A DNA stretch of 5,893 nt. Source: a virus (lineage: Duplodnaviria; Heunggongvirae; Uroviricota; Caudoviricetes). Position 1 is the first letter of the stretch. Every line of letters starts with the position of its first letter. The stretch is taken from positions 1 to 5,893 of IMG/VR virus record IMGVR_UViG_2778261277_000021; one strand, given 5' to 3'. Shown here one piece after another: positions 2,878 through 5,800 of the stretch. The position numbers were made by a program.

Positions 2878-5800
2878 TGACCACTTCACACGTCGTATGC
2901 AAGAACGTGCTGCGGCTGGCTGGCGAACTTTCGATAGTGCGAGTATTGAATGATTTCCAGCCGTTACCGATTTTACGTGTTAATTAGTGAATAAACCACT
3001 CGTCAGCAGATTCCCAGGTATCTTTCAGAGTCTCCTGAACAAAAGTTTTTGCAGAATCCTTATCTGCGGTGCGTGTAACAGAAAGGCCATCGTTGCTGGT
3101 GGCTTTTACGATCACCTCTACATCGTCATAACGTTTACTGATGCGTCGGGTTAATTCTTCCTTTAACGCATCCACAGCACCGGTTGGCATTTTAGTCATT
3201 TTTTCTTTGGCTATGCAGATTTCAATACGCATAAAAGTCCCTCTATACTGTGTTTGTATACAGTATTATTTTTAACTGTATGGATAAACAGTGTCAAGAG
3301 GTCTTATTTCTGCTCCTTTGGAGCTCTTCAAAACGATTATGTAAAGATTTCGGATACAGTTCGGTATATACCTGCCATAGCACGTTTAATGAACGATGCC
3401 CTGTAACCTGGGCGACTTCCTCAATACTAAAACCAGCCTCAAATAAGCGACTTGCCCCTTCTCTACGCAAATCATGGTATCGCAGATCTTTAATACCTAA
3501 TTTGCTTCTTACCCTCTGGAATCCCGCAGTAACAGAAGTGCTTTTATATGGAAAAATGAATTCTGATTTTTTGGGTTGTCGTTGGACGATATCCCAGGCT
3601 TCCCCAAGCAAGGCTACTTTCATATGGTTGCCTTCCTTTTTACGTGGATCTTTCCTGTCTCTTACGAGTATGGATTTTTGTTCCTGATCGAGATCCTCCC
3701 ATCGTAATCGGCATACTTCACCGATTCGCATACATGACCACACAGAAAATTTGAGGATATCAACGAACGGAATTTTTGAGCATTTATGTGTAGAGCGTTG
3801 TTGAAGACCTTCAATGAGCATGTCCAGTTCATCAGATGCCGGTCTACGATTACGACGATTTGATTTACCAATTAACCCAAGTTTAAGTAGATATGGACGA
3901 GCGGCTTTTGCTGGGTTTGATGTGTAATTAATTCCATATACAGGTTTGGCAGCATCCAGAACACTGCCAAGATAACTAACATCGTGGCTAACTGTAGCTG
4001 GACCTGCACCAGCGTTGTTTCTTAGCCTGCAATGTTCAATTACGTCATTTTCTGTCAGTTCAGATAGTTTGATCGCGGAGATGTCACTATCCATAAGCAG
4101 TTCCAGCACATATCTTTTAGTACGGCCTGCTTTACCTCCGGCATTTGGGTCATTTAAATATTTGTGTAGTAAGTCACGGACTGTAAGTCCGTCAACTGCA
4201 TTTGATGATGGAATGCCATATAGATCTAATTCCATCACTTTCTGTGTGCCCCATGTTTTGGCATGAGCATGTTTAGGGAATGTTTTGCTTTCCCTGTAAG
4301 TGATAACACCTTTTTCTTTGATAATCACATTACAGCGATAGCGTGGTGTGCCATCGGATTTTAGTCGTTTCTCTATGTTATAGTACGCCATTACACGACC
4401 TCGTTATTTCGGGTTCCCATAAAACGTGGGAACCTGTGCGGGAACCTAACGCGAGAAAAATAGCCTGAAATGTTCAAAAATGCACGATAATCATGAAACA
4501 CAAAAAATTAATCAAACCAGCGTGATGCCTGAAAAAACTGGTGTTTACTGGAATTCTCGGTTTAGCATTGCTCCTATGCTCGACTGGACGGACAGACATT
4601 GCCGCTATTTCTTGCGTCTGCTTTCCCGCAATACGTTGCTGTATACCGAAATGGTGACCACAGGGGCGATTATTCACGGTAAAGGTGATTACCTGGCGTA
4701 CAGTGAAGAAGAACATCCGGTAGCGTTGCAACTCGGCGGTAGCGATCCGGCGGCGCTGGCGCAGTGTGCAAAGCTGGCAGAAGCGCGCGGATATGATGAG
4801 ATCAACCTGAATGTCGGCTGCCCGTCTGACCGGGTGCAGAACGGCATGTTTGGTGCGTGTCTGATGGGTAATGCGCAGCTGGTTGCCGACTGCGTGAAAG
4901 CGATGCGCGATGTGGTGTCGATTCCAGTGACGGTGAAAACGCGTATTGGCATCGATGACCAGGACAGCTATGAATTTCTCTGCGATTTCATCAACACCGT
5001 TTCCGGCAAAGGCGAGTGTGAGATGTTTATCATCCACGCACGTAAAGCCTGGCTTTCGGGGTTAAGCCCGAAAGAAAACCGTGAAATCCCGCCGCTCGAT
5101 TATCCGCGTGTGTATCAACTGAAGCGTGACTTTCCGCATCTGACAATGTCGATTAACGGTGGTATCAAGTCGCTGGAAGAGGCCAAAGCACACCTGCAAC
5201 ATATGGATGGCGTGATGGTCGGGCGCGAGGCGTATCAGAATCCGGGTATTCTGGCGGCGGTAGACCGGGAGATCTTTGGTTCCTCGGATACCGATGCCGA
5301 TCCGGTGGCGGTAGTGCGCGCCATGTATCCGTACATTGAGCGTGAACTCAGCCAGGGGACGTATCTCGGCCATATTACCCGGCATATGTTGGGCTTGTTC
5401 CAGGGTATTCCTGGCGCGCGGCAGTGGCGGCGTTATTTAAGTGAAAATGCCCATAAAGCGGGTGCAGACATTAATGTGCTGGAACACGCGCTCAAACTGG
5501 TGGCGGATAAGCGTTAACTTTTCACCAAAAAGTAGTCAAATTCACCACGCCCTGCGCACCGTCGCGGGGCGTTTTGCTGTTAAATCAATAGATTATTTTT
5601 GGCATGATTCTTGTAATGCCAGCAAGAGATTTCATATTTGGGAGAGCATCATGCTGGAACTACTTTTTGTGTTTGGCTTTTTTGTCATGCTGATGGTCAC
5701 CGGCGTTTCGTTGCTGGGCATTATCGCCGCGCTGGTTGTGGCGACGGCCATTATGTTCCTCGGCGGTATGCTGGCATTGATGATTAAGTTGCTGCCGTGG

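What the first reader, a model, noticed from the sequence alone, without database searches (positions are those of the whole stretch)
4411..4447. Triplet of GGGAACC 9-mers, one inverted and two direct, between int and dusA
GGGTTCCCA, TGGGAACCT and CGGGAACCT occur within 37 bp in the short divergent leader. Repeated 9-10-mers in this position next to an att core are what arm-type integrase or directionality-factor binding sites look like in lambda-like systems. The first two copies can also form a hairpin in either transcript. This is unexplained by any coding feature.
Basis: seen in the sequence. Interest (0 to 1): 0.45.

Follow-up and report, generated by a model that had tools for sequence, protein, structure and literature searches.

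The report
Integrase arm-type sites of dusA prophage
The three short repeats next to the integrase gene are very probably three of the five accessory ("arm-type") docking sites that this prophage's integrase uses to fold its attachment site for insertion into and excision from the dusA gene: a known kind of element, but apparently not yet described for this widespread integrase family.

Summary
GGGTTCCCA (4411-4419), TGGGAACCT (4427-4435) and CGGGAACCT (4439-4447) are the only GGGAACC copies in the window. They lie in phage DNA, 20-56 nt upstream of int and 129-165 nt from the crossover core ATGCTCGA (4576-4583, inside dusA).

The far prophage junction carries two more direct copies, TGGGAGCCT-at-TGGGAACCT, 50-61 nt beyond the core. 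In about 1 kb of rebuilt attP these five are the only matches at two mismatches or fewer.

About 90 related elements (Int 35-99% identical, Escherichia to Ralstonia) keep the layout but change the word, for example GGGGTGCT, GGTGTAC, GGGATAC and GTAGCAA. In 8 of 9 elements with both arms, the same word recurs on both.

The word tracks Int's predicted three-strand-plus-helix N-terminal domain; residue 30 is the best predictor among 351 columns. In a small sample it does not track the PrtN-type excision factor, and hairpin pairing is not selectively kept.

Verdict: lambda-style arm-type Int sites, probably also autoregulating int. This is a new member of a known kind. All evidence is computational.

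The parts
4411..4419 (-). Int-proximal arm-type site 1, the inverted copy. It reads TGGGAACCC on the - strand and lies 165 nt before the core start.
   Evidence: An inverted copy is present in 35 of 82 related loci.
4420..4426 (.). 7-nt spacer between sites 1 and 2, which would be the loop of the possible hairpin. Its sequence is free to vary.
   Evidence: 4 of the 8 polymorphic positions among 72 near-identical copies fall here. L078 has a wholly different spacer with identical sites.
4427..4435 (+). Int-proximal arm-type site 2 (TGGGAACCT), the first of the direct pair, 149 nt before the core start.
   Evidence: A direct pair at 11-12 nt spacing is found in nearly all related loci.
4439..4447 (+). 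Int-proximal arm-type site 3 (CGGGAACCT), the second of the direct pair, 137 nt before the core start.
4448..4575 (+). Phage-supplied replacement of the dusA leader and 5' end, about 85% identical to the native sequence. It carries A-tracts or units phased about 10 nt apart. It is a candidate bend, RdfN or IHF region and must hold the int and dusA promoters.
   Evidence: three-way alignment with the K-12 empty site; autocorrelation 0.397 at lag 10 and 0.367 at lag 20, against about 0.30, in 43 loci; Durand 2021, PMC8409611 (the element supplies a new dusA promoter)
4576..4583 (.). Common core ATGCTCGA, where the crossover occurs. Window positions up to 4575 are phage DNA and positions from 4584 are host DNA. 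In the rebuilt attP the core is the perfect inverted repeat TCCTAT-GCTCG-ATAGGA.
3294..4391 (-). DusA-family tyrosine integrase, 365 aa. Residues 1-58 (codons at about 4218-4391) form a predicted three-strand-plus-helix N-terminal domain, the proposed reader of the repeats. Residues 70-170 are the core-binding domain and 189-346 the catalytic domain.
4480..5517 (+). dusA, chimeric: the 5' end up to 4575 comes from the prophage and the remainder from the host.

Best explanation
The three 9-mers are the int-proximal set of arm-type binding sites for the prophage's own DusA-family tyrosine integrase.

The complete attP, rebuilt from the two prophage junctions and seen intact in phage Lys8385Vzw, reads as follows: int start codon; site 1 (inverted, -165); site 2 (-149); site 3 (-137); about 130 nt of phage-made dusA leader with 10-nt phased A-tracts; the core TCCTAT-GCTCG-ATAGGA; an IHF-like site (+28); then sites 4 and 5 (direct, +50 and +61).

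Inferred mechanism, by analogy with lambda Int. The catalytic and core-binding domains of Int sit on the core. The small N-terminal three-strand-plus-helix domain, tethered by a flexible linker at residues 59-69, reaches the arm words. Bent arm DNA then lets Int bridge arms and core into an intasome. The PrtN-family RdfN biases the reaction towards excision.

Inferred second role. The three sites lie 20-56 nt upstream of the int start codon, inside the 88-nt int-dusA divergent control region. Bound Int should therefore repress its own transcription, as in the KplE1 IntS paradigm, and may also affect the phage-supplied dusA promoter.

What is shown here: the positions, the copy number, the conservation of the layout, and the co-variation of the word with the Int N-domain. 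What is inferred: physical binding, bridging and autoregulation.
For: (1) Both arms carry the word. The word occurs three times at -165, -149 and -137 and twice at +50 and +61 from the core. There are no other matches at two mismatches or fewer in about 1 kb of attP, and the only two exact copies in 50 kb lie one per arm. The same five copies are contiguous in the free-phage attP.

(2) The layout is family-wide while the word is lineage-specific. In 80 genome loci and 9 phage or satellite records (Int 35-99% identical), a direct pair at 11-12 nt spacing, often preceded by an inverted copy, lies 15-50 nt upstream of int. The word is, for example, GGGAACC, GGGGTGCT, GGTGTAC, GGTGTCC, GGGATAC, GGGGCAG, GGGGTAC or GTAGCAA.

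(3) In 8 of 9 elements where both arms are available, the element's own word recurs as a pair in the distal arm. Only 0-10 of 2000 shuffles reach the observed score. In most of these elements the two copies are 11 nt apart.

(4) Purifying selection acts on the sites. Among 72 near-identical copies, all 8 polymorphic positions of the 75 nt upstream of int fall outside the 27 site positions.

(6) The word is specifically coupled to the N-domain. Of 351 Int columns, residue 30 (strand 3) has the highest mutual information with the word class: Y with GGGGTGC in 26 of 26 cases, and H with GGTGTAC in 5 of 7. Residue 23 (strand 2) is second by normalised information. At matched divergence of the rest of Int, pairs sharing a word have N-domains 12-29 points more identical. 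The residual difference is 0.149, reached by 0 of 5000 label permutations, whereas five control 60-residue blocks give -0.02 to +0.05.

(7) RdfN does not follow the word in the six elements compared.

(8) A precedent for autoregulation exists: in KplE1 the int promoter overlaps the arm sites (PMC2951348).
Against: There is no binding, footprint or recombination data for this or any DusA-family Int in the literature I could search.

The co-variation analyses are not phylogenetically corrected beyond conditioning on the rest of the protein.

Direct repeats one helical turn apart are also typical of RDF sites (PMC7498355 abstract).

No sigma-70-like promoter was found in 4300-4700, so the autoregulation step has no mapped promoter behind it.
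Confidence: 0.8

Rival explanations
1. The repeats are binding sites for the recombination directionality factor (the PrtN-family RdfN encoded near the far end of the prophage), not for Int.
For: The direct copies are 11-12 nt apart, roughly one helical turn, which is the usual layout of RDF sites (PMC7498355 abstract). RdfN homologues accompany this integrase family in every element checked. RdfN is the proven RDF of dusA elements (PMC8409611).
Against: The sites occur on both arms, whereas characterised RDF sites lie on one arm (my knowledge of lambda Xis and P2 Cox; KplE1 TorI). The word tracks the Int N-domain specifically. YeP2 and Kp4882-1 share an identical word with only 51% identical RdfN, while E. 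coli and YeP2 have different words with 54% identical RdfN. A separate, better RDF candidate exists: the 10-nt phased units between the proximal sites and the core. Int's extra N-terminal domain would otherwise have no target.
Confidence: 0.08
2. The inverted pair (4411-4419 and 4427-4435) acts as an RNA or DNA hairpin, for instance a 5'-UTR structure controlling int or dusA expression or a cruciform. On this reading the third copy is incidental.
For: A stable stem-loop is predicted: -21.5 kcal/mol on the + strand (z = -2.96) and -15.1 kcal/mol on the - strand. In Escherichia sp. locus L086 both arms of the pair changed together, GGTTCCC to GGTCCCC and GGGAACC to GGGGACC.
Against: Only 35 of 82 related loci have an inverted copy, while the direct pair is nearly universal. 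Among 27 distinct triplets the inverted copy matches the non-pairing second direct copy better (13) than its would-be partner (5). There is no T-run and no terminator call. In the Ralstonia, Pseudomonas and Burkholderia phages the inverted copies lie 25-40 nt from the direct pair. A hairpin does not explain the two distal copies.
Confidence: 0.04
3. The repeats are operators for another regulator, either phage repressor/Cro/LexA-type or host, that controls the divergent int and dusA promoters and is unrelated to recombination.
For: The repeats occupy the 88-nt divergent control region. The 8-7-8 palindrome resembles a dimeric operator. Related non-dusA elements do carry LexA-box-like palindromes nearby.
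Against: The same word recurs on the other side of the core, about 37 kb away in the prophage, where no promoter needs it. The word co-evolves with the Int N-domain. The architecture persists across unrelated element types with different regulatory modules: Mu-tailed siphophage-like, P2-like, PM2-like and F116-like. The LexA-like boxes are distinct sequences located beside the repeats, not the repeats themselves.
Confidence: 0.05
4. The repeats are a chance cluster of a G+C-rich 7-mer with no function.
For: The overall count of the 9-mer in the 50-kb region is not above expectation. In addition, 6 of 200 shuffles of the window reach three copies of the 7-mer.
Against: The copies cluster at two positions symmetric about the core. 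The layout is conserved over about 90 elements with concerted word changes. Polymorphisms avoid the sites.
Confidence: 0.01

Closest known systems
Arm-type sites P1, P2, P'1-P'3 of bacteriophage lambda attP, bound by the N-terminal domain of lambda Int
   Same: There are five short repeated words distinct from the core, split 3 + 2 between the two arms and lying within about 170 nt of the crossover. The arms are bendable, with an IHF-like site between the core and the nearer pair. The integrase has an extra small N-terminal three-strand-plus-helix domain on a flexible linker. A small RDF is encoded by the element.
   Different: There is no detectable sequence similarity between the N-domains, and the word is different. 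Here the three-site arm is the far arm and lies at the 5' end of int, whereas in lambda the 3' end of int faces attP. The target is the 5' coding end of dusA, which the element rebuilds. The RDF is PrtN-family rather than Xis-family. Binding has not been tested.
KplE1 / HK620 IntS-TorI module (Panis et al. 2010, PMC2951348)
   Same: int is transcribed away from the att core, so its promoter region overlaps the arm-type sites of the int-proximal junction. That paper showed negative autoregulation by Int and the RDF, and predicted it for all such layouts.
   Different: The integrase family, the word (TAAA-containing P' sites) and the target (argW tRNA) all differ. Here no promoter has been mapped and no regulation measured.
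DusA-specific integrases and their islands and prophages (Farrugia et al. 2015, PMC4482086; Durand et al. 2021, PMC8409611)
   Same: This is the same family and the same biology: int abuts the 5' end of dusA, the element replaces the dusA 5' end and promoter, the att core is semi-conserved, and there is a PrtN-like RdfN.
   Different: Those papers define only the 21-bp core repeats. Neither text contains the word 'arm'. The five accessory sites, their lineage-specific words and the N-domain coupling are additions made here.
AP2-like arm-binding domains of Tn916-type integrases (Pfam PF14657, Arm-DNA-bind_4)
   Different: The scores are below Pfam's cut-off. There is no match for the window's own protein and no significant Foldseek hit.

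Membership tests
Arm-type sites of heterobivalent tyrosine integrases (lambda Int kind) | Several copies of a short word, different from the core sequence, lie in the attP arms on both sides of the crossover. | tested here: met
   Five copies lie at -165, -149, -137, +50 and +61 from the core. There are no others at two mismatches or fewer in about 1 kb. The core is ATGCTCGA, which is unrelated to the word.
Arm-type sites of heterobivalent tyrosine integrases (lambda Int kind) | The integrase carries an extra N-terminal DNA-binding domain, separate from the core-binding and catalytic domains. | tested here: inconclusive
Arm-type sites of heterobivalent tyrosine integrases (lambda Int kind) | The sites are specific to the cognate integrase, so the word changes with the integrase across relatives and the copies within an element change in concert. 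| tested here: met
   own word on both arms in 8 of 9 elements; residues 30 and 23 are the top predictors; N-domain-specific coupling, 0 of 5000 permutations
Arm-type sites of heterobivalent tyrosine integrases (lambda Int kind) | The Int N-domain physically binds the sites, and the arms are required for attP function. | not testable with these tools
   This needs EMSA or footprinting and recombination assays.
DusA-specific integrase elements (Farrugia 2015) | int abuts the 5' end of dusA. The element supplies a substitute dusA 5' end, and the displaced native 5' end lies at the far junction. | tested here: met
   a 37.5-kb prophage, with the native dusA 5' remnant at L001 40607-40711
DusA-specific integrase elements (Farrugia 2015) | A PrtN-like RDF (RdfN; Durand 2021) is encoded across attP from int. 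| tested here: met
   PF11112 hit with E = 2.9e-23 at L001 39112-39384. The same family is present in YeP2, proACA1-A, Vibrio PE004, GP4 and Kp4882-1.
RDF (Xis/Cox/Apl/RdfN-type) binding sites | Direct repeats are spaced about one helical turn apart. | tested here: met
   The spacing is 12 nt in the proximal pair and 11 nt in the distal pair.
RDF (Xis/Cox/Apl/RdfN-type) binding sites | The sites are confined to one arm and specific to the cognate RDF. | tested here: not met
   The sites lie on both arms. In six elements the word does not follow RdfN identity. The sample is small.
Autoregulated int genes with a promoter overlapping att (KplE1 paradigm) | The int promoter overlaps the Int or RDF binding sites of the adjacent att arm. 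| tested here: inconclusive
   The geometry fits: the sites lie 20-56 nt upstream of the start codon, and the whole promoter must lie in the 185 nt between int and the core. However, no sigma-70 consensus was found. By eye there is only a weak TTGATT-17-GATTAT on the - strand at about 4487-4515.
Intrinsic terminator or regulatory hairpin | A stem followed by a U-run, or base pairing maintained by compensatory change across relatives. | tested here: not met
   There is no terminator call. The inverted copy is no closer to its pairing partner than to the other direct copy (5 against 13). The inverted copy is absent from 47 of 82 loci.

The most novel reading that the evidence does not exclude
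The arm words act as element-specific 'barcodes'. All DusA-family elements compete for one nearly invariant dusA core, but their arm words and the matching residues of the Int N-domain (notably residue 30: Y for GGGGTGC, H for GGTGTAC, R for GGTGTCC, I/V for others) have diversified together. One element's Int therefore cannot assemble on, integrate or excise a rival element. This would make the family a natural, readable recognition code for AP2-like arm-binding domains and a source of orthogonal, re-programmable integrase/attP pairs. A further possibility is that Int occupancy of the proximal sites tunes expression of the rebuilt host gene dusA.
Probability: 0.3. Interest if true: 0.6.

Novelty: new member of a known kind. 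Interest (0 to 1): 0.4.

Why it matters
DusA-family integrases drive prophages, satellites, PM2-like elements and IncC-mobilisable genomic islands across Proteobacteria, yet only their 21-bp core repeats have been described. Knowing that attP is a lambda-style site of about 230 bp has three practical consequences:

- It defines the minimal functional attP for genetic tools and for calling prophage borders.
- It predicts that int is self-limited in lysogens.
- It offers a large natural series of matched N-domain/word pairs from which DNA-recognition rules could be read and tested.

For the window itself, it turns an unexplained repeat into an ordinary and well-understood part of the prophage's integration module.

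Tried and rejected
- A promoter and terminator consensus scan of 4300-4700 found nothing on either strand, so I could not place Pint or the new dusA promoter.
- A Foldseek search of the isolated N-domain model against the PDB gave no significant hit.
- A profile search of the N-domain against PDB sequences gave only spurious hits with E > 0.3.
- A viral-contig scan with the single protein returned only near-identical E. coli copies. These were useful for polymorphism analysis but not for divergence.
- A shared-7-mer matrix between the arms was too noisy because of A/T-rich background. I replaced it with word-specific scoring.
- My regular expression for the core missed many true dusA loci that use other codons, so the periodicity and distance statistics rest on 43 loci.
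- I considered and rejected three alternative readings: hairpin or terminator, generic operator, and chance.

Full report
**1. Observation**

The window is E. coli DNA at the right end of a prophage inserted in dusA.
- int is 3294-4391 on the - strand and dusA is 4480-5517 on the + strand.
- The sequence read shows GGGTTCCCA at 4411-4419, TGGGAACCT at 4427-4435 and CGGGAACCT at 4439-4447.
- GGGAACC occurs three times in the window, all within this stretch, against 0.56 expected.
- The repeat finder reports the direct pair at 12-nt spacing and the perfect 8-nt inverted pair across a 7-nt gap.

**2. Setting**

The one genome that holds the whole window (NZ_CP038857, locus L001) shows a 37.5-kb prophage.
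- It has an HK97-type head and a Mu-type tail.
- It runs from the int-dusA junction to a remnant of the native dusA 5' end.
- A PrtN-family gene lies about 1.2 kb inside the far junction.

I aligned the window junction, the far junction and the empty K-12 site. The only stretch common to all three is ATGCTCGA (window 4576-4583).
- Everything up to 4575 is phage DNA. This includes an 85%-identical copy of the dusA leader and first codons.
- Everything from 4584 is host DNA.
- The repeats therefore lie in the phage arm, 20-56 nt upstream of the int start codon and 129-165 nt from the crossover, not beside it.
- The rebuilt attP core is the perfect inverted repeat TCCTAT-GCTCG-ATAGGA.

**3.

The far junction carries TGGGAGCCT-at-TGGGAACCT, two direct copies 11 nt apart, at +50 and +61 from the core start.
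- In about 1 kb of rebuilt attP, the five copies are the only matches to TGGGAACCT at two mismatches or fewer.
- In 50 kb, the only two exact copies lie one in each arm.
- The free phage Lys8385Vzw (Int 99.5% identical) has all five in one contiguous attP.

**4.

Phage records with Int 68% down to 35% identical keep the layout but use another word.

| Element | Int-proximal arm | Int-distal arm |
|---|---|---|
| Yersinia YeP2 | CAGCACCCCA / AGGGGTGCTG / TGGGGTGCTG | CGGGGTGCT-at-TGGGGTGCTG |
| Klebsiella Kp4882-1 | TGGGGTGCTG, two copies | TGGGGTTCT-at-TGGGGTCCT |
| Pseudoalteromonas C5a and proACA1-A | AGGGTGACT | |
| Vibrio PM2-like element | AGGGGTACT | AGGGGTACT-at-AGGAGTACC |
| Ralstonia GP4, Pseudomonas H66, Burkholderia BcepMigl | GTAGCAA, 3-5 copies | two copies |

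- In 8 of 9 elements the own word recurs in the distal arm. At most 10 of 2000 shuffles reach the observed score.
- Eighty genome loci (Int 52-99% identical) show the same thing next to int. The words include GGGAACC, GGGGTGC, GGTGTAC, GGTGTCC, GGGATAC, GGGGCAG, GGGGCACC and GGGGTAC.
- Among 72 near-identical E. coli copies, all eight polymorphic positions in the 75 nt upstream of int avoid the 27 site positions.
- L078 keeps all three sites although its spacer and flanks are diverged.

**5. Which protein reads the word**

Domain build of Int:
- Pfam sees only the catalytic domain in the window's Int.
- AlphaFold predicts three domains. The first has strands 2-10, 16-26 and 29-38 and helix 41-58 at pLDDT about 90, followed by a weak linker.
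- Full-length lambda Int chains align over the whole model.
- Some family members give sub-threshold PF14657 (Arm-DNA-bind_4) matches, and PF24624 matches for the core-binding domain.

The fold evidence is therefore suggestive only. The co-variation evidence is stronger:
- Across 69 Ints with an assignable word class, the column with the most information about the class is residue 30 in strand 3. Y pairs with GGGGTGC in 26 of 26 cases, H with GGTGTAC in 5 of 7, and R with GGTGTCC in 2 of 3.
- Residue 23 in strand 2 is second by normalised information.
- At matched identity of the rest of the protein, same-word pairs have N-domains 12-29 points more identical. The residual difference is 0.149, reached by none of 5000 label permutations.
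- Five control 60-residue blocks give -0.02 to +0.05.

RdfN does not follow the word in the small sample available:
- YeP2 and Kp4882-1 share a word with 51% identical RdfN.
- E. coli and YeP2 have different words with 54% identical RdfN.

**6. The hairpin**

The stem-loop is predicted to be stable. Three results argue against pairing as the conserved property:
- Only 35 of 82 loci have an inverted copy.
- Among 27 distinct triplets, the inverted copy resembles the non-pairing direct copy more often (13) than its partner (5).
- The spacer varies freely.

**7. Mechanism**

*Shown:* a five-site attP of about 230 bp whose words co-evolve with the Int N-domain.

*Inferred by analogy with lambda Int (my knowledge, and the introduction of PMC2951348):* the N-domains bind the arm words while the C-terminal domains bind the core, with bent arms bridging them.
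- The proximal arm has a marked 10-nt periodicity across 43 loci.
- An IHF-like site lies at +28 in both the E. coli element and YeP2.
- RdfN, the proven RDF of dusA elements (PMC8409611), would bias the reaction towards excision, perhaps through the phased units.

*Also inferred:* the three proximal sites occupy the int 5' region, so Int probably represses its own gene. This was shown for KplE1 IntS and predicted there for every int whose promoter overlaps att (PMC2951348). No promoter was detectable by consensus.

**8. Comparison with the literature and novelty**

The element is a typical DusA-family island or prophage (Farrugia 2015; Durand 2021).
- Those two papers describe only the 21-bp core repeats and never mention arm sites.
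- No paper in the searchable library links dusA with arm sites.
- The library lacks most subscription journals, so prior description cannot be excluded.

Arm-type sites are a textbook feature of heterobivalent integrases, so this is a new member of a known kind. It is useful rather than surprising. The more novel reading that remains open is that word diversification gives elements competing for one core mutually orthogonal identities, with a readable residue-to-base code.

**9. Verdict**

- Confidence in the main explanation is 0.8.
- Interest is 0.4.
- All evidence is computational, and a gel shift or footprint with Int(1-65) is the decisive missing piece.

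Noticed in passing
window 4448-4545; same stretch in L087-L165, L005, L167, L168: The phage-supplied dusA leader between the proximal sites and the core has A-tracts or units phased about 10 nt apart. Autocorrelation is 0.397 at lag 10 and 0.367 at lag 20, against about 0.30, over 43 loci. In marine elements these are explicit tandem units such as GGCAATTCAA repeated three times. This is a candidate RdfN array or intrinsic bend.
   Followed up: partly
L001 about 40575-40587 (- strand); L004 (YeP2), same offset: An IHF-consensus match with one mismatch (AAACAAGTAGTTA; TATCAGTAAGTTA in YeP2) lies at exactly +28 from the core start in both elements, between the core and the distal pair. 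This is like lambda H'.
   Followed up: partly
L086 (Escherichia sp. MOD1-EC7003), 22-60 nt upstream of int: With Int 99% identical, both members of the inverted pair carry a matched change (GGTTCCC to GGTCCCC and GGGAACC to GGGGACC), while the third copy is unchanged. This could be gene conversion between the inverted copies or a pairing constraint. It is a single case.
   Followed up: no
L164, L144, L149, L158, L143, L123, L166: Relatives with Int 52-58% identical are not next to dusA. They lie next to other genes or after a terminator, and keep the direct pair without the inverted copy. Several carry LexA-box-like palindromes just beyond the pair, for example TACTGTATTAATATACAGTA in L164. 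This suggests SOS-controlled int promoters and a change of target without a change of arm layout.
   Followed up: partly
L168 (Vibrio phage 1F53_PE004, 14.4 kb): A PM2-like (Vinavirales) element uses the same integrase family, the same RdfN and the same arm layout as tailed prophages and P2-like phages. The int-attP-rdfN module is therefore shared across unrelated virus realms.
   Followed up: no
L003 (Escherichia phage Lys8385Vzw) 1297-1320: The deposited 'circular' genome has the core ATGCTCGA duplicated in tandem (ccatgctcgaatgctcgatagg). The record was probably built by joining prophage ends rather than sequenced across attP.
   Followed up: no
window 2646-2880 and 2984-3232: Between int and the tail-fibre genes lie a DinI-like gene (2984-3232, - strand; PF06183) and a fragment annotated in RefSeq as a partial IS transposase ('integrase core domain') abutting a truncated tail-fibre assembly gene. 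This is a scar of an old IS insertion.
   Followed up: no
L001 39418-40466: Two cargo genes, a Panacea-domain protein and a hypothetical protein, lie between rdfN and the distal arm sites. This is the usual place for a toxin-antitoxin-like or defence pair.
   Followed up: no
window 4487-4515, - strand: By eye there is a weak promoter-like TTGATT-17 nt-GATTAT on the int strand, inside the dusA 5' mimic. It scores 8 of 12, below the scan's threshold. If real, all three sites would lie in the int 5' UTR.
   Followed up: no
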